The notes under the pieces are model-generated. The model did not search any database. It saw nothing but the letters and a program-made list of their open reading frames with translations, and was not told the DNA's origin. The translations under genes were made by a program, and so were the position numbers. From a virus (taxonomy: Duplodnaviria; Caudoviricetes), in IMG/VR virus record IMGVR_UViG_3300033487_000023, positions 1 to 37,194 of that record: a stretch of 37,194 nucleotides of DNA. One strand, written 5' to 3'. Below, piece after piece: positions 1 through 37,194 of the stretch; position 1 is the stretch's first letter, and each line of letters opens with the position of its first letter.

Positions 1-133
1 ATTGAGACATAGCTCGTGTTATTCAGATACACTCCGAGCAGATATCCGTAGATGTTGCACCCGGAGATTGTGTGTCGGTAGTTGCTCCCTGCCGCTGGGT
101 TTAGCTTGATTGCGTAAGCGGACGACCCTCCAG
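1..133. repeat. Terminal direct repeat, left copy (circular assembly overlap)
   Basis: 1-133 is identical to 37062-37194 except C24 vs T37085. The tailspike reading frame continues in frame across the junction. Confidence 0.97.
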
Positions 134-21448: not shown

Positions 21449-21654
21449 ACTTTCTCTTCCATCTCCAATTGATTGAGGCGCTCCTCGATGTCGCAAAGTT
21501 TCTTGGCGATATCATTAGCAATATCGAAACTACCACCCGATAGGCGTCGGATCAGTTCCATCAAACCGTCAACAGCAACAGCAAGGGGCGTGAGCTCTCC
21601 ACTGTCGTCTCTCTGCTCTCGAAGCTCATAGATGTCCATCATAAAACCACTCAA
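21445..21654 (-). CDS. Small protein, paralog of 21272-21448
   Basis: QRDDSGELTPLAV motif; C-terminal coiled coil. Confidence 0.65.
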   Translation of the reverse strand: MSGFMMDIYELREQRDDSGELTPLAVAVDGLMELIRRLSGGSFDIANDIAKKLCDIEERLNQLEMEEKV

Positions 21655-22055
21655 TCCTTCAGATAATCAACGAACGCATCGACCACGGCGCAAAAGAAGT
21701 GATCCTTCAGCTTCTGGTCGGAAGGAAGCTGATCGTATGGCACCATGCATGGATGCTCTTTCTTCTCGGCGTCCTTGATCGGACCATACTTCCACCCTTC
21801 TTTCTCTTTGTGCTCAAGCCACCGTTCATGACTCGTCTCAGGTGCTTGGTGTGGATTCTTCATCCTTTCGGCGACGCCAGAAATGCATGACTTCTTCTGC
21901 CAGTCCGGCGAAGCAGACCATGATAGCTGACTCGCATCTCCGAGGTGGCCACAATAGACCCGGTTGACCTCGTGCGCGACGCGAGCCGCCATTTCGATCA
22001 CTTCCAAATTCCGCATGTTCAGTTCATCCTTTCCTGCTGGTTCGACAAATGTCAT
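21651..22055 (-). CDS. RyR-domain protein
   Basis: HERW...KEKEGWKYGPIKDAEKKEHPCMVPYDQLPSDQKLKD matches the RyR repeat signature. Confidence 0.88.
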   Translation of the reverse strand: MTFVEPAGKDELNMRNLEVIEMAARVAHEVNRVYCGHLGDASQLSWSASPDWQKKSCISGVAERMKNPHQAPETSHERWLEHKEKEGWKYGPIKDAEKKEHPCMVPYDQLPSDQKLKDHFFCAVVDAFVDYLKD

Positions 22056-22804: not shown

Positions 22805-23809
22805 CTACAGCACTATCGATATCTGGTCAACCTCAATTCGGTTTCTGATCGCTTGTCGCTGTGCTGGTGTTGTGACGTGTTGCTCTCGGTATCGATCCAC
22901 GTGCGCCGCGTCACGCATCGCGAGCTCAAGCGAGAGGTACATGCGACCCTGCGCGTTCGAGCCGAGGTTCCACGGTGTCTCGTGTATCCCATCGATCGCC
23001 TCGCGCAGTTCGTCAACCGTGTAGCCCTCCTCGAGCCGATCCACGATGTGCCTCCATTCCTTCGACTTCGTGCTCGGTTTTTTGAGCGCCCGGGGGTGGT
23101 AGGCCCGGAAGTGGTCGATGACCTCGTGGACCTCGGAAGAGCGCGAGACGCGCACGGACTCGATGCCGATCTTCGATGAACCAACTTCGCCACGAGCGAC
23201 GAGCGAACCGGATGGTGCGGCTTCAGCCGCACGAGGCGCGTTAGCGCCGGCCGGTTCTGGTTGTTCGGATGGCTGCTGGGCCGGTTCTGCGGCGGCGAGA
23301 TCGACATTACTCTCTTTCAAGCACTGATCTTGTGTATATATGTGAGCCTGATCATGAGCATGAGCATGAGCATGAGCATGAGCATGAGAGGGCGACAAGT
23401 TCGGCGACAAGTCCTGCGACAGAGCTTGTGACAGAACTTGTGACAAGTTTTTCGACGAGCGCCTCTTCTCTCGCGCCTGCTCGTCTCTTTTTCTGTTATA
23501 TTCCAGCTTGTTAAAGTAGGCTTCGTTGTGATCTAGCCATCCTCTCAGGTACCATTTTCCGTCCCCGGCGCATCGAAGGTAGTGCTTGAGCATCGCTCGC
23601 CACATGACGTCTCGGTCTCCCCTCCATGAAACGATCTCAGCGAGCCTGTCACGATCAAGACGGAGGACGCCGTCAACCACGCGACCCGCCATCGCGTGAC
23701 CCCAAAGACGAACCGGGTAGGCCAAACCGGACGGCTCTCCGATTTCGTGGCAGAAGTCCTCGAGGTCCGATCCGAAAATGAACGACGTCTCAACGAAAAT
23801 AGCTGGCAT
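22805..23809 (-). CDS. Replication initiation protein (lambda O/DnaD-like)
   Basis: Likely start at 23809 (GAGGAG RBS). N-terminal wHTH-like region ending LRGWLDHN, low-complexity linker with internal DNA repeats, C-terminal RLEEGYTVDELREAIDG domain. Confidence 0.75.
   Translation of the reverse strand: MPAIFVETSFIFGSDLEDFCHEIGEPSGLAYPVRLWGHAMAGRVVDGVLRLDRDRLAEIVSWRGDRDVMWRAMLKHYLRCAGDGKWYLRGWLDHNEAYFNKLEYNRKRDEQAREKRRSSKNLSQVLSQALSQDLSPNLSPSHAHAHAHAHAHDQAHIYTQDQCLKESNVDLAAAEPAQQPSEQPEPAGANAPRAAEAAPSGSLVARGEVGSSKIGIESVRVSRSSEVHEVIDHFRAYHPRALKKPSTKSKEWRHIVDRLEEGYTVDELREAIDGIHETPWNLGSNAQGRMYLSLELAMRDAAHVDRYREQHVTTPAQRQAIRNRIEVDQISIVL
23353..23450. repeat. Putative replication origin: five 12-bp iterons plus (CATGAG)x6
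   Basis: GGCGACAAGTTC, GGCGACAAGTCC, TGCGACAGAGCT, TGTGACAGAACT, TGTGACAAGTTT (23391-23450) and CATGAG x6 (23353-23388) inside the initiator gene, as for lambdoid ori. Confidence 0.65.
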
Positions 23810-24075
23810 GCCGTCTCCTCTCATTTCCTCTAGACAAGACGCGCGGCCAGCGGTATTGATGGCTCGCGCGTGCTTGTGCGTGATCGTGCGCGTTCCTCCG
23901 TGCTTCGTTCGTTCACTGCTCGCGCACCTCCTTCTTTGTTGTTGCGGGTCGCGCCGGGGGCTTCGGGGCTCCCGGCCACTCGCTATCGATTCCTAGCCAC
24001 CGATGGCGCAACGGGTCAAGTCGGATCTTGCGGCCACTGGCCGATCCGTGTATAGAAGGCCATCCCCCCTTACAG

Positions 24076-25584: not shown

Positions 25585-25971
25585 GCACCGAGCCGTACCA
25601 TGCCCCGCCTAGCCTCACCTAGCCTCACCATGCCTGCCGTACCATGACGCGCCTCTCCCAGCCTTTCCGCGCCGATCCACGCCTTGACAGCCAAACCGAG
25701 CCCCGCCAAACCACGGCACGCCTAGCCAGGTCATGCCCTGCCTGCCTTGCCGCGCCTAGCCCGACCAAACCACGCCTGGCCCCGCCCAGCCTTGCCTCGC
25801 CTGCCCTGACGTGCCGTGCAGCGACGAGCCCCGCCGCTCCGCTCCGCGCCTTGCCTGCCCTGACATGCCGTGTCATAACGAGCCCCGCCGTTCCATTCCG
25901 CGCCTTAGCCCTGACGGCCATGCCCGCCCTGACGAACCGTGCCACCCAATCCGAGCCTACCCATGCCTGCC
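25585..25971 (-). ncRNA. Downstream GGY/NN pentamer array (putative multi-guide RNA, about six 54-59-nt modules plus a degenerate 5' part)
   Basis: Minus strand parses as (GGC/GGT/GGA/GTC + NN) x10-11 separated by 4-nt GGCA/GGCT. Module 25801-25747 is GGCga GGCaa GGCtg GGCgg GGCca GGCgt GGTtt GGTcg GGCta GGCgc GGCaa. The array ends GGTGC-AGAACAACAAAC. Confidence 0.8.
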
Positions 25972-26403
25972 TAGCTCAGCCAGGATCACACCCCGAAGCC
26001 CTGCTAGTTCCTGAGTGTCTGTCGCTTCTCTGCACCAAGCCCGCAACACACCGATCTGTCTATCGATGAACAAGGCCCTTGCGTCCTTGTCGAGAAGCGC
26101 AGAAGGCCTCTCTAGGTAGACCGATTCTCCACCGGACTTTGGCAAGAACGCACGGACGAAGACCTCCTGTGTTGGCTCGTTGCACTGAATGAGCACCATC
26201 TGAGCACGAAACAGGTGAAGGATCTGTTGCCTTCGATATTGCTCTCCAGCCACAGAGTCGTCCCATTCAAGATGCTCATGCAGCGGATTCGCTGGGCTTC
26301 TGGCTGCCTCAAGAGCCGCATCAACCGAGAGTTTCCCTCCATTCTCTCGCATGATGCGCTTGAACTCCTGAGCAACAGCGGATCCGCTACTCGTCGCTTT
26401 CAT
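25957..26403 (-). CDS. Conserved accessory protein of the Cas7-like/array locus
   Basis: Likely start at 26403, overlapping the Cas7-like 3' end; GKLSVDAALEAARSPANPLHEHLEWDDSVAGEQYR.QQ motif; its stop lies inside the start of the array. Confidence 0.75.
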   Translation of the reverse strand: MKATSSGSAVAQEFKRIMRENGGKLSVDAALEAARSPANPLHEHLEWDDSVAGEQYRRQQILHLFRAQMVLIQCNEPTQEVFVRAFLPKSGGESVYLERPSALLDKDARALFIDRQIGVLRAWCREATDTQELAGLRGVILAELGRHG

Positions 26404-27160
26404 CAGCACTGTCTTCTTCCTTCCCGGCCGCAACATCTTCCTTTCCGGCCGCAACGTCGCCTAGCCTTGCAAGAACCTCGGCTGTGAACTCGATTCCTCG
26501 CGCCCAATCTGGGATCTTGAGTTGCACAAGAGGAACGGAGCATTCAGCCCTGACCTCGGCCATCTCCTTCACGTCCAGAGTCCGAGAGACTCGGAACGTT
26601 CCGTGAGTCCCGTTTCTCTCTGGCCTCCACTCGCCGACACCGACCATCCCTGCACGAGAGAGCAGATCCGTCACAGTCTCGACCGCTATCTGATCGCCCA
26701 TGGCTATCAGCAATCGAGCCTTCCACCCGAAGAACTCCGGACGGAAGCGGATATCCATCGTTCTGTTCATTCCTCCAACAGGAACGGGAACCATGGAAAT
26801 ATCAGTCCGCTCATATGTGATAGGGACGCTGTTTCCAATCACGAAGATCTGAATTCGGAGCTGCGTCTTCTTCAGACCTTTGACCTGCGTGCTTGCGCTC
26901 AACATCGCCATCTTGATCGCGGCCGGAGGTATGCAGACACGGCCGCTTTCGTTGCGCACCGTCGCATCCTCGACACACTTTTCAGGGACTTTCGGGACTC
27001 TGAGTGCGCTTATCCCCATTTGCTTCCGCAGCATTGCATCGATGCTTTTTTGTGCAAACTTGTTCTGGAGCAATGGTGCTGTGCCAGTGATCTCGAATCC
27101 TACGATTAGAGATCCCCTGCTCTGTTCGATCGCTGTGTCCTTCGTCTTCTTCCGTGCCAT
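26387..27160 (-). CDS. Stand-alone Cas7/RAMP-like RNA-binding protein (Vipr-like effector)
   Basis: Start at 27160 after AAGGAAGG. RAMP hallmarks: first strand FEITGTAPLL, IPPAAIKMAM (cf. IPxSSxKGxxR) and C-terminal Gly-rich loop AGMVGVGEWRPERNGTHGTFRV. Flanked by pentamer arrays. Confidence 0.8.
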   Translation of the reverse strand: MARKKTKDTAIEQSRGSLIVGFEITGTAPLLQNKFAQKSIDAMLRKQMGISALRVPKVPEKCVEDATVRNESGRVCIPPAAIKMAMLSASTQVKGLKKTQLRIQIFVIGNSVPITYERTDISMVPVPVGGMNRTMDIRFRPEFFGWKARLLIAMGDQIAVETVTDLLSRAGMVGVGEWRPERNGTHGTFRVSRTLDVKEMAEVRAECSVPLVQLKIPDWARGIEFTAEVLARLGDVAAGKEDVAAGKEEDSADESDE

Positions 27161-27187: not shown

Positions 27188-27264
27188 GCCGCACCAGACG
27201 CGCCTCGCCATAACTGGCCTCGCCCGGCCGTGCCATGCCTAGCCTCGACACGCCGCGCCACGCC
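27188..27264 (-). ncRNA. Upstream GGY/NN pentamer array (single putative guide)
   Basis: GGCgt GGCgc GGCgt GTCga GGCta GGCat GGCac GGCcg GGCga GGCca GTTat GGCga GGCgc, then GTCT-GGTGC-GGCAACAACCAAC; lies between the recT stop and the Cas7-like start. Confidence 0.8.
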
Positions 27265-27276
27265 GTCACATGTCAG

Positions 27277-28182
27277 TTATCGGCTCGTCTGGTCTGAAGT
27301 TGCGTGCTCTTCGTATTCACGAAGCAAGGCCTTCTGCTCGTCGTCTAGCTCGGGCTCCTTCTCCTGCGCGGGTGCTTGCTCCCGCGCCGCAGCCCTCGAC
27401 TTGGCTGCAAGTCGCCTGGTCGCGGGCTCCTGCGGCAAGGCCTCGAGGTCTCCACCGTCGACAATCCGCACTTCCTCCTGGTCCTCGTCATTCCCCACGG
27501 CGTCGGCGAGCTCGGGCGTGACGACAATCGGAAGCCGCGAGATGAGCCTGCGGATGACGGTCTTTCGCGCCATCATGTCCCACCACTGTGTCCACGGGCC
27601 AATCTCCGAGGCCCCGGCCTTGCTCGCGGCGCGCACGCGTTCGATCTGCTCTTTGGTCATGAATTCGGTAGCTACGCTCCCATCGTCGAGCCTAGCCCAG
27701 GCATAGGCTCCCTTGATCTGAGAGTAGTCCGAGCGGCCATCGAGGCGAGGGCGATGGGAGACGCGCATATCCGAGCCGAGCTCGATGGAGAACTCGTCTC
27801 CAGGGTAGACCACCTCTGCGGCGCATGCCTGGATTGCCCCAGAGCGTTTCGCCAGAGTGAGCAGACCCATGTAGCCGATCATCATCTGTGCATCACTTGT
27901 TCCTGTGCGCTTGTTTCCGTAGGGTATGAGATAGGCCTGCTTGAGCGGCCCTGCCGGCTCAAGCCCGAGCTGCAGCGCATCCATGCACGCGATGACGATG
28001 CTCCGAGGGTCGCACCCGAGCAGTTGCGGAGAGCGCGATACCGCACCGAAGACGATCCGAGCAACGCGCTCGGGCGTGAGGTACTTCGCAGCAATCGCCG
28101 GGATGAGCTTGGTCATCTGTGCCACTGTGGCCGGGTTTTCCAGGTGCCTCCGCACCTCAAGCGCTGTGTCTGTCTTTGCCAT
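27277..28182 (-). CDS. recT: RecT-family single-strand annealing protein
   Basis: LGLEP....QAYLIPY, IGYMGLLTLAKRSG, VYPGDEF, GAYA, MTKEQIE, PWTQWWDMMARKTVIRRL...LP. Confidence 0.95.
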   Translation of the reverse strand: MAKTDTALEVRRHLENPATVAQMTKLIPAIAAKYLTPERVARIVFGAVSRSPQLLGCDPRSIVIACMDALQLGLEPAGPLKQAYLIPYGNKRTGTSDAQMMIGYMGLLTLAKRSGAIQACAAEVVYPGDEFSIELGSDMRVSHRPRLDGRSDYSQIKGAYAWARLDDGSVATEFMTKEQIERVRAASKAGASEIGPWTQWWDMMARKTVIRRLISRLPIVVTPELADAVGNDEDQEEVRIVDGGDLEALPQEPATRRLAAKSRAAAREQAPAQEKEPELDDEQKALLREYEEHATSDQTSR

Positions 28183-28201: not shown

Positions 28202-29143
28202 TTACTTCCACTTCGGCAGAAAGCGCCGGACTGGATTTGATGCTGTCGTGTGCCTGTCTATCACATCTTGAGGTATTGGATACTCAGAAACGACATCTTC
28301 CCAATGGATGTATGGTGTCGATTTCACGAGTTTCCAAGTGAGCCTCCATCCGTCAACAGGGCATACTATGCCTTCGGCGTCCCCAATCTCAGCGCAGAGA
28401 TGATTGCGGGCCTCGAGCTCGATGGCCTCCGCCTTCTTCGAGAGCTCGCGAGCCTCGTGAAGCTGCGCCATCCACTTGCGCGACTCGATTGTCGCCTCGC
28501 GCATCTCGGAGTTGTGGCGCGCGAAGCGCCTTGCCAGGTGCCGGCCATAGCTCGCGCTCGCATCCACGGGAGGCTCGACGCCGGCCACCACGTAGCGCAC
28601 GCGCCAGTCGTCGAGAGCCGCGATGAGCTCGGCCTCGGCCTCGATGTCGCGCTCGATGGGGAAAATCCGGATGTCCCCGAATGTGAACAGCACGACATCC
28701 GAGCTCATCTGGTGGCAGGCCATCTCGACCATGTCCTGCGCGAGATAGTGGTCGGGCACCTCGTCTGTGCCGTCCGCGCCCCAGCCGTCGTCTCGACGTG
28801 GACACTTGATCTCGAGGAGCCTCTTCTTTGGCACTGCCAGCGTGAACCCGTCGTTGCTGGCACCGAGCCAATCCTTTTTCGGGTGGACGGAAAAAGAACC
28901 AGGCTCTGTCTGCCGGCCCAGTCTCTGTCCGGCCCAATCGCGGATCCCTTTTTCAAGGTGGATGCCGCGCTCGACATCGGGGCCAGTGAGGTCCTCGCGT
29001 TCGTAGGGCTTGCCAGCGAGCTCGGCCGTCATTCGCTCCCAGACGTCGATGGCTCCTCGCCACGGGGATAGCCCGAGGACCGCCGCGGCATCGGTGCTCG
29101 TCATGCGACCCACACGCCGAGGGTCAAGGTGGGACTCGTTCAT
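28202..29143 (-). CDS. YqaJ/lambda-exonuclease family recombination nuclease
   Basis: STDAAAVLGLSPW, RGIHLE, WLGASNDG, LLEIKC, VPDHYLAQ; paired with recT. Confidence 0.92.
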   Translation of the reverse strand: MNESHLDPRRVGRMTSTDAAAVLGLSPWRGAIDVWERMTAELAGKPYEREDLTGPDVERGIHLEKGIRDWAGQRLGRQTEPGSFSVHPKKDWLGASNDGFTLAVPKKRLLEIKCPRRDDGWGADGTDEVPDHYLAQDMVEMACHQMSSDVVLFTFGDIRIFPIERDIEAEAELIAALDDWRVRYVVAGVEPPVDASASYGRHLARRFARHNSEMREATIESRKWMAQLHEARELSKKAEAIELEARNHLCAEIGDAEGIVCPVDGWRLTWKLVKSTPYIHWEDVVSEYPIPQDVIDRHTTASNPVRRFLPKWK

Positions 29144-36616: not shown

Positions 36617-37194
36617 TCACAGAGCATCGGTGACAGTCAAACCGGCTCCGTTTGTGGCTCCGGTTGCCTGGTCGAAGATATCGTTGCCGTGAGCGTTTCC
36701 AACCGTGGCGGCATCGTAGTTGATGCCATAACGCCCTTCGTCGATGATGTTCCCGGAGAACATGCAGGTGTCTCCGAAGGCGATCCAGATGTTGTCATAG
36801 GTATCTGCGTTCAACACGCAACTGTTGTTCGCGAACAATACACGGATAGCGTTCCAGACCCTGATTGATTCCCTATTCCTTCCTCCGACAGACAGGAAGT
36901 TGCCATATATCGTCGAATACTGAAGGGTGCCGAAGCTGATAAGTCCAGTATCGGTCGTCGCCGTTGCCTTGCCATGGACAGAGTTTCCGCTGACCCTGAC
37001 ATAGTCGCTGGTTCCCTCTCCGCGGATAGGATAGTCTGTGGCCTCAATCGTGTTTCCAATGATTGAGACATAGCTCGTGTTATTTAGATACACTCCGAGC
37101 AGATATCCGTAGATGTTGCACCCGGAGATTGTGTGTCGGTAGTTGCTCCCTGCCGCTGGGTTTAGCTTGATTGCGTAAGCGGACGACCCTCCAG
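36617..37194 (-). CDS. Tailspike, 3' part (continuation of the 1-2405 ORF)
   Basis: Same frame after circularisation (...GVYLNNTSYVSIIGNTIEATD...); beta-helix rungs IIGNTI, VSGNSV, IYGNFL, FSGNII; stop at 36617. Confidence 0.9.
   Translation of the reverse strand, partial: GGSSAYAIKLNPAAGSNYRHTISGCNIYGYLLGVYLNNTSYVSIIGNTIEATDYPIRGEGTSDYVRVSGNSVHGKATATTDTGLISFGTLQYSTIYGNFLSVGGRNRESIRVWNAIRVLFANNSCVLNADTYDNIWIAFGDTCMFSGNIIDEGRYGINYDAATVGNAHGNDIFDQATGATNGAGLTVTDAL
37062..37194. repeat. Terminal direct repeat, right copy
   Basis: Matches 1-133 with one mismatch; implies a circular unit length of 37,061 bp. Confidence 0.97.

What the first reader, a model, noticed from the sequence alone, without database searches (positions are those of the whole stretch)
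27200..27675. The upstream guide decodes as a recT target: NN dinucleotides equal codon positions 1-2, skipping the wobble base
Seen in sequence: the 13 variable dinucleotides at 27264-27200 are GT GC GT GA TA AT AC CG GA CA AT GA GC. Read as NN-x triplets they can encode V-A-V-E-Y-M-T-R-E-Q-I-E-A. The phage's own recT at 27675-27637 reads GTA GCT ACC GAA TTC ATG ACC AAA GAG CAG ATC GAA CGC (V-A-T-E-F-M-T-K-E-Q-I-E-R). That is 9/13 dinucleotides identical, in codon register, and three of the four mismatches are conservative substitutions (V/T, Y/F, R/K). A rough uniform-base hand estimate gives ~1e-8 per position, ~1e-3 over both strands for this guide. Inference: the guide recognises a gapped target insensitive to synonymous mutation. 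The likely target is the recT of a related competing phage, with self spared by mismatches, or an ancestral or autoregulatory self target. The guide is sense to recT, so it would pair with template-strand DNA rather than mRNA.
Basis: partly seen in the sequence, partly recalled or inferred. Interest (0 to 1): 0.95.

Follow-up and report, generated by a model that had tools for sequence, protein, structure and literature searches.

The report
VIPR guide aimed at kin recT
This phage carries a VIPR system (a CRISPR-like gene silencer described in 2026), and one of its predicted guide RNAs matches a recT motif of close relatives better than its own copy, so it likely silences rival kin while sparing itself; this is a new example of a known system.

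Summary
The 13 dinucleotides at 27264-27200 match the phage's own recT codons 170-182 at 9 of 13 units in codon register (32 of 20,000 shuffles). Scored by bases, however, it is 19/26 and not significant. The locus is a VIPR system: a RAMP-fold Vipr, a vap gene and staggered GGY/NN arrays. The best support for recT comes from two of the three closest RecT proteins (71-72% identical). They read V-[M/L]-V-E-Y-M-T-R-D-Q-I-E-R, fit 11 of 13 units, and carry V, Y and R exactly where the own gene mismatches (chance about 0.001-0.002). No perfect 13-unit DNA target was found in three collections. A second guide (25801-25752) decodes to a conserved tyrosine-integrase motif (18 of 19 viral hits), which supports the code at this locus independently. 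Likely role: repress kin phages' recT operon, with self below the binding threshold. That the own gene mutated to escape is only weakly supported. This scan noted near-self VIPR guides, one aimed at recT, on other genomes before. Verdict: new member of a known kind.

The parts
27200..27264 (-). Upstream vrRNA guide g1: 13 GGY/NN units, decoding to V-A-V-[DE]-Y-[IM]-T-R-[DE]-[HQ]-[IM]-[DE]-A; a degenerate 14th unit follows at 27199-27195
27637..27675 (-). Near-self site: recT codons 170-182; 9/13 units, 19/26 bases; mismatches at T172, F174, K177 and R182
27277..28182 (-). recT (RecT ssDNA annealing protein, 301 aa)
   Evidence: PF03837 E 1e-41; phrog_148 E 9e-71
28202..29143 (-). recE-like YqaJ exonuclease, upstream on the same strand
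   Evidence: PF09588; phrog_434
26387..27160 (-). vipr, 257 aa RAMP-fold protein; the longer ORF call from 27211 starts inside the guide and is probably spurious
   Evidence: profile hit to SUSP1 Vipr 36pp_D, E 3.4e-8; model pLDDT 89; Csm/Cmr folds
25957..26403 (-). vap-like accessory gene, 148 aa, overlapping the end of vipr
   Evidence: homologues in 74 of 80 Vipr loci; phrog_15946
25585..25975 (-). Downstream staggered vrRNA array: six called segments (g2-g7) plus degenerate units at the 5' end; segments shift register by one base, mostly at GGCA|GGC
25752..25801 (-). Guide g4: 10 units decoding to [DE]-[KN]-[CW]-G-[HQ]-V-[FL]-R-Y-A, a conserved motif of arm-type tyrosine integrases
   Evidence: 18 of 19 exact 9-unit viral hits in register in integrases, one 10/10

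Best explanation
The tract at 27264-27200 is the upstream guide unit of a VIPR locus, and its dinucleotides fit the recT motif of this phage's closest known relatives (11 of 13 units) better than its own (9 of 13), so it likely directs Vipr to repress recT of rival kin phages. By the published mechanism (inferred here, not tested), one Vipr protomer would hold each GGY, and each NN would pair with codon positions 1-2 on the template strand, skipping the wobble base. The bound filament would block transcription. In a rival built like this phage, a block inside recT would also likely cut expression of the vipr, vap and replication genes that follow on the same strand. The own recT differs at four units (7 of 26 read bases) and is predicted to be spared. 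Shown: the sequences, the fold, and the protein-level fit to kin. Inferred: expression, binding, repression, the mismatch threshold and co-infection with such kin.
For: Vipr identity. Self site in codon register with a 1-nt skip only. P0122 and P0123 fit 11/13, and units 3-12 fit without a break; 0 of 20,000 shuffled guides reach 11 in 73,824 residues of 216 non-self RecT proteins (not independent of the self match). All three kin carry V, Y and R at 172, 174 and 177, where self has T, F and K. Given the site, 3 of 4 free units agreeing by chance has P 0.0012-0.002. Implied read-base identity is 21-22/26 (81-85%) for two kin, over the papers' 80% cut-off, against 73% for self. Guide g4 confirms the same code and sense on an unrelated family: 18 of 19 hits are integrases with all nine skipped bases variable and median flank identity 61%. 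Lower self than non-self scores and targeting of relatives are reported in 10.64898/2026.10.15.759431.
Against: No perfect DNA target: 0 hits for 13 units in viral, metagenome and genome collections and 0 for units 4-13 in viral contigs. Units 4-12 gave 1 + 18 + 15 hits, with 1 of 34 in recT (L110, 9/13 units). An unrelated gene (L102) reaches 11/13 by chance in the genome collection. Unit 2 fits self but none of the kin; unit 13 fits none of the four. The third kin, P0124, scores 9/13 (19-20/26), no better than self. Kin DNA could not be fetched, so their scores are deduced from protein. No sibling recT allele appeared in the four runs laid. The base-level self match is not significant.
Confidence: 0.7

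Rival explanations
1. Self-escape or relic: the guide once matched this lineage's own recT, or an allele now lost, and the own gene gained non-synonymous changes at read positions to escape; the guide may have no present target.
For: Self has 3 private changes among 9 kin-conserved footprint columns, against 11 of 161 outside (Fisher p 0.028, post hoc). Unit 2 matches only self. R177 is also in the next outgroup, P0192, so K177 looks derived.
Against: Self is sister to the three kin (85/82, weak), so T172 and F174 cannot be polarised. T, F and K are ordinary RecT residues at these columns (6, 5 and 7 of 71). A larger cluster of private changes lies at residues 82-97, outside the footprint. Selection against self-matching guides gives the same pattern with no escape.
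Confidence: 0.14
2. Autoregulation: the complex binds the 9/13 self site weakly and damps its own operon, since the site lies about 370 nt upstream of the guide and about 480 nt upstream of vipr on the same strand.
For: Geometry seen in sequence. The self site is the best site in the genome at unit level.
Against: 73% identity, with three units wrong at both bases. The first paper found no self hits at 80% or more in the clades it checked. The guide fits kin better than self at three of the four mismatches.
Confidence: 0.08
3. Chance: the guide is aimed at some other, unsampled sequence and the recT fit is a coincidence.
For: Base-level self match p 0.02-0.06. About 1% at unit level after 7 guides. 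33 of 34 core hits are not recT. No perfect target was found.
Against: The conditional kin test (p 0.001-0.002) does not depend on how the site was found. The fit is in wobble register, on a conserved motif, as with g4.
Confidence: 0.06
4. The tract is not a guide but a low-complexity repeat or the start of a longer vipr reading frame.
For: An in-frame ATG at 27211 lies inside the tract.
Against: GGY/NN arrays were called in 67 of 80 related Vipr loci, 275 of 276 on the vipr strand. A ribosome-binding-site-like run precedes ATG 27160, and the database protein is 257 aa.
Confidence: 0.02

Closest known systems
VIPR systems, type II of Escherichia phage SUSP1 and a Pseudomonas fulva prophage (bioRxiv 10.64898/2026.04.26.720920; structures 10.64898/2026.04.26.720927)
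   Same: vipr plus a small vap gene; one guide upstream and an array downstream; GGY/NN units; 1-nt skip on the wobble base; G-loop W178 and R179 and thumb arginine (R140 here, R138 in SUSP1) kept; no self match at 80% or more.
   Different: Vipr is distant from SUSP1 Vipr (pairwise E 0.17; profile E 3.4e-8), 257 aa with a C-terminal extension, E177 for D177. Arrays are staggered, and no SUSP1-like structured tail was seen. recT is not named as a target in the text or PDF supplement I could search; data S3 was not held.
Staggered vrRNA arrays (fig. S18 legend of 10.64898/2026.04.26.720920)
   Same: Segments that shift register by one base, the end of one being the start of the next.
   Different: Type number cannot be assigned, because the figures and data S4 are not held.
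Kin-directed and anti-satellite vrRNAs (bioRxiv 10.64898/2026.10.15.759431)
   Same: Wobble-aligned targeting of conserved coding motifs; self scores lower than non-self; a recombinase of an integrated element as target (here g4).
   Different: There the kin targets are vipr and vrRNAs, mostly from solo guides of vipr-null phages. Here a vipr-positive phage aims at a housekeeping gene that it also carries, next to the locus.
Class 1 CRISPR-Cas RAMP backbones (Csm3, Cmr4, Cas7)
   Same: RAMP fold (Z 11.1, rmsd 3.9, 158 aligned to 6s6b_I).
   Different: No CRISPR array or cas gene among the 42 ORFs scanned; gapped rather than contiguous pairing.

Membership tests
VIPR | Stand-alone RAMP homologue (RRM core, thumb, G-loop) | tested here: met
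   Profile of 119 homologues hits SUSP1 Vipr best, E 3.4e-8; model matches Csm/Cmr subunits
VIPR | GGY-binding residues (SUSP1 H17, R138, D177, W178, R179) | tested here: met
   R140, E177, W178 and R179 are invariant in 119 sequences and align to R138, D177, W178 and R179; D177 is E and H17 aligns to N33
VIPR | Adjacent vap accessory gene | tested here: met
   148-aa ORF with homologues in 74 of 80 Vipr loci; which vap class was not determined
VIPR | Flanking intergenic arrays of 9-16 GGY/NN units | tested here: met
   Seven segments of 10-14 units as called
VIPR | 1-nt skip code, skip on the wobble base | tested here: met
   Computational only: g1 and g4
VIPR | No self target at 80% or more of NN bases | tested here: met
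   g1 19/26; g2-g7 at most 6 units and not significant-looking in the own genome
VIPR | vrRNA is expressed, binds Vipr, and the complex binds dsDNA and represses | not testable with these tools
   Needs small-RNA sequencing, pull-down and reporter assays
VIPR type II (SUSP1-like) | Conserved structured 3' tail with pseudoknot after each guide | tested here: inconclusive
   Only about 35 nt of A/C-rich linker lies between g1 and the vipr start; fold z -0.33; no covariation test was run
VIPR type I-VII assignment | Vipr phylogeny, vap class and array architecture | not testable with these tools
   Reference tree, figures and data S4 are not held
Class 1 CRISPR-Cas | CRISPR array and several cas genes | tested here: not met
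   No Cas family among 42 ORFs; no CRISPR-period repeat; no Rfam match

The most novel reading that the evidence does not exclude
A phage aims an RNA guide at a conserved motif of a gene that it needs itself, and has paid for self-tolerance with amino-acid changes at the read positions of its own recT. Hitting kin recT would also shut the rival's VIPR and replication operon downstream. Sub-threshold, wobble-aligned self matches would then be a general footprint of kin-directed VIPR guides, missed by the 80% cut-off used in print (9 of 157 self against 66 of 2,983 non-self guide-genome pairs).
Probability: 0.2. Interest if true: 0.65.

Novelty: new member of a known kind. Interest (0 to 1): 0.38.

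Why it matters
What this locus adds is a testable natural set for mismatch tolerance and self/non-self discrimination in a PAM-less system: one guide, a 19/26 self site and 21-22/26 kin sites that differ at three defined units. It also shows one small, apparently complete phage splitting its guides between close kin (recT) and integrated elements (tyrosine integrase), in a staggered-array Vipr clade far from the two systems studied in the lab.

Tried and rejected
Exact 13-unit target: 0 hits in viral, metagenome and genome collections. Units 4-13: 0 viral hits. Units 4-12: 1 viral hit, not recT; 18 metagenome hits, 0 recT; 15 genome hits, 1 recT. The tools warn that records very near the window's genome may be left out. 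A motif-centred protein search returned only the four known clade members. No RNA holder listed. No sibling allele in four same-study runs, of which only part was read. My idea that g2 and g3 read antisense as a Walker B motif: 24 hits for an 8-unit g2 pattern did not converge, so rejected. g7 had 0 viral hits; g3, g5 and g6 were not scanned in collections. No window guide other than g1 fits RecT or Vipr homologues (7 units or fewer). No sigma-70 promoter match and no Rfam match. General near-self test: the first two versions gave weak excesses that also appeared in an off-register class. The cleaner result came after I changed the frame rule on seeing misclassified hits. It uses 20 records picked mostly by guide count from 80 loci; one record (G035) was added knowing it held a hit, and 53 of 157 guides come from one record. 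I treat it as a hint only. Paper search for vrRNA plus RecT: 0 papers.

Full report
OBSERVATION. The gene upstream, 27277-28182, is recT (PF03837 E 1e-41). Its codons 170-182 (27675-27637) match 9 of 13 dinucleotides at codon positions 1-2, the best site on either strand with a one-base skip; skips of 0 and 2 give 7 and 6. 32 of 20,000 unit-order shuffles and 38 of 20,000 random guides reach 9 or more, about 1% after the seven guides tested. Scored by single bases, as the papers do, the site is 19/26, reached by 288 of 5,000 unit shuffles and 99 of 5,000 base shuffles. The self match alone is thus weak to moderate evidence. Contigs of two other runs from the same wetland study repeat guide and target regions with no other letters.

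WHAT THE LOCUS IS. The ORF after the guide (26387-27160, 257 aa) has no Pfam match. A profile of 119 homologues finds the solved SUSP1 Vipr protein as best hit (36pp_D, E 3.4e-8; pairwise only E 0.17). Its model (pLDDT 89) matches CRISPR Csm/Cmr RAMPs (Z 11.1, rmsd 3.9, 158 aligned). R140, E177, W178 and R179 are invariant and align with the SUSP1 residues R138, D177, W178 and R179 that grip GGY (10.64898/2026.04.26.720927). A 148-aa ORF follows (25957-26403), with homologues in 74 of 80 related viral loci. Then comes an array of six called segments that shift register by one base, the staggered form of fig. S18. This is a VIPR system. The contig has a 133-nt terminal repeat with one mismatch and no PF00589 match, so it is probably a whole phage genome without a tyrosine integrase, though IMG/VR lists it as linear and 52% complete.

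WHAT IS ALREADY KNOWN. [quoted passage not shown] 10.64898/2026.04.26.720927 (parts 1-2 of 6) gives the filament and triplex. 10.64898/2026.10.15.759431 (parts 1-3 of 8, section 17 and a term search) shows silencing of a satellite recombinase at wobble-aligned codons, and guides against relatives' vipr and vrRNAs that score lower on self. Of 10.64898/2026.10.21.760802 I saw passages only. recT is not named in these searches, and a search for vrRNA plus RecT found 0 papers. Data S3, the target tables, and the bioRxiv supplements were not seen and could list recT.

IS recT THE TARGET? No exact 13-unit match exists in the viral, metagenome or genome collections. The 9-unit core gave 1, 18 and 15 hits, of which one lies in a recT at the homologous motif (L110, 21/26 bases). 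An unrelated gene reaches 11/13 (L102), so scores of that size can be chance in 596 billion bases. The protein side is more telling. The three closest RecT proteins (71-72% identical) read VMVEYMTRDQIER, VLVEYMTRDQIER and IMVEYLTREQIER. The first two fit 11 of 13 units, the best of 217 RecT proteins, and 0 of 20,000 shuffled guides reach 11 on the 216 non-self proteins; this is not independent of the self match. What is independent: at the four units where self fails, the guide specifies V, Y, R and A, and all three kin carry V, Y and R at the first three. The chance of three or more such agreements is 0.0012-0.002. Codon positions 1-2 follow from the residue, except for Arg, so the two best kin must score 21-22 of 26 bases and 19-20 of 20 over units 3-12; 244 of 305 Arg codons in ten window genes are CGN. 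They pass the published 80% cut-off and self does not. Against: unit 2 fits only self, unit 13 fits none, P0124 does no better than self, and the kin DNA could not be read. P0123 and the top Vipr homologue P0002 both come from a 4,438-nt Logan contig, which hints, by length alone, at a sibling with the same recT-VIPR layout.

AN INDEPENDENT CHECK OF THE CODE. Nine units of guide g4 (25801-25752) gave 19 exact viral hits, against 1 and 0 for the 9-unit patterns of g1 and g7. 18 of 19 fall in register on the motif [NK]-C-G-Q-V-[FL]-R-Y-A. The six of these proteins scanned are all arm-type tyrosine integrases (PF13356, PF22022, PF00589). L274 matches all 10 units, all nine skipped bases vary, and median flank identity is 61% with one near-identical pair. 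So this locus uses the same code and sense against a conserved gene of integrated elements, as SUSP1 does against its satellite. These are family-level matches; the actual target element and the host are unknown.

ESCAPE OR FILTER? Self has 3 private changes in 9 kin-conserved footprint columns, against 11 in 161 outside (p 0.028, post hoc; a larger cluster lies at residues 82-97). The tree puts self sister to the three kin with weak support, and only K177 can be called derived. T, F and K are normal RecT residues there. Escape by mutation is possible, but a guide kept because it happens to miss self explains the data as well.

GENERALITY. In 157 guides from 20 other VIPR phage records, wobble-aligned sense self matches at p of 0.02 or less number 9 of 157, against 66 of 2,983 on non-self records (Fisher p 0.011). 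The frame rule was revised after a first look, one record was added knowing it held a hit, and the guides are not independent, so this is a hint. Earlier notes of this scan describe near-self VIPR guides on five other genomes, one aimed at recT, and anti-satellite guides on two. They are unchecked AI notes, not support. None concerns this genome.

MECHANISM. Shown: anatomy, fold, and sequence fit. Inferred from the papers: the operon yields vrRNAs, Vipr coats g1, the NN pairs read the template strand of recT codons 170-182, and the filament blocks transcription. In a sibling of the same layout the block would lie upstream of its VIPR genes and of the replication-initiation gene (22805-23824). 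Self, with three units wrong at both bases, would be spared. Odds: kin targeting 0.70, escape or relic 0.14, autoregulation 0.08, chance 0.06, not a guide 0.02.

VERDICT. Interest 0.38.

Noticed in passing
window 25752-25801 (-): Guide g4 decodes to a conserved motif of arm-type tyrosine integrases; 18 of 19 exact viral hits, L274 10/10.
   Followed up: yes
window 25794-25906: Guides g2 and g3 are a 54-nt tandem duplication at 85% identity whose differences fall largely in NN positions, a possible trace of how new guides arise; no target found.
   Followed up: partly
window 1-133 and 37062-37194: 133-nt terminal repeat with one mismatch, suggesting a complete circularly assembled genome although the record is classed as linear.
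   Followed up: partly
L069:6997-7061, L048:7837-7886, L026:3334-3418, L042:5405-5489, L047:7280-7324: Other VIPR phages hold guides with sub-threshold, wobble-aligned matches to their own genes, which look by eye like tail, capsid and ClpP-like protease genes (names from recall, not scanned).
   Followed up: partly
G039 (L199-L202), G007 (L009), G004 (L005): Very large guide collections: 53, 19 and 15 called segments. L009 separates guides with a fixed AATCACGGCA-like linker rather than a one-base stagger.
   Followed up: no
L003, L004, L007: The vap homologue lies upstream of vipr instead of downstream; in L003 guides sit before, between and after the two genes.
   Followed up: no
H7-H31 (phage records): Cultured Gordonia and Mycobacterium phages (e.g. 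UmaThurman, Donkeykong) encode about 30%-identical Vipr homologues annotated as hypothetical, five Gordonia records with a vap homologue close by; possible tractable models.
   Followed up: no
window 21651-22055 (-): Small ORF with a RyR domain match (PF02026, E 2.6e-11).
   Followed up: no
window 23343-23445: Short tandem repeats (TGAGCA x7.7 and two 12-mers) inside the replication-initiation gene, possibly origin iterons.
   Followed up: no
window 27227-27266: Short unrelated contigs in runs X1 and X3 align to the guide tract with 7 differences in about 40 nt, probably other GGY/NN arrays in the same samples.
   Followed up: no
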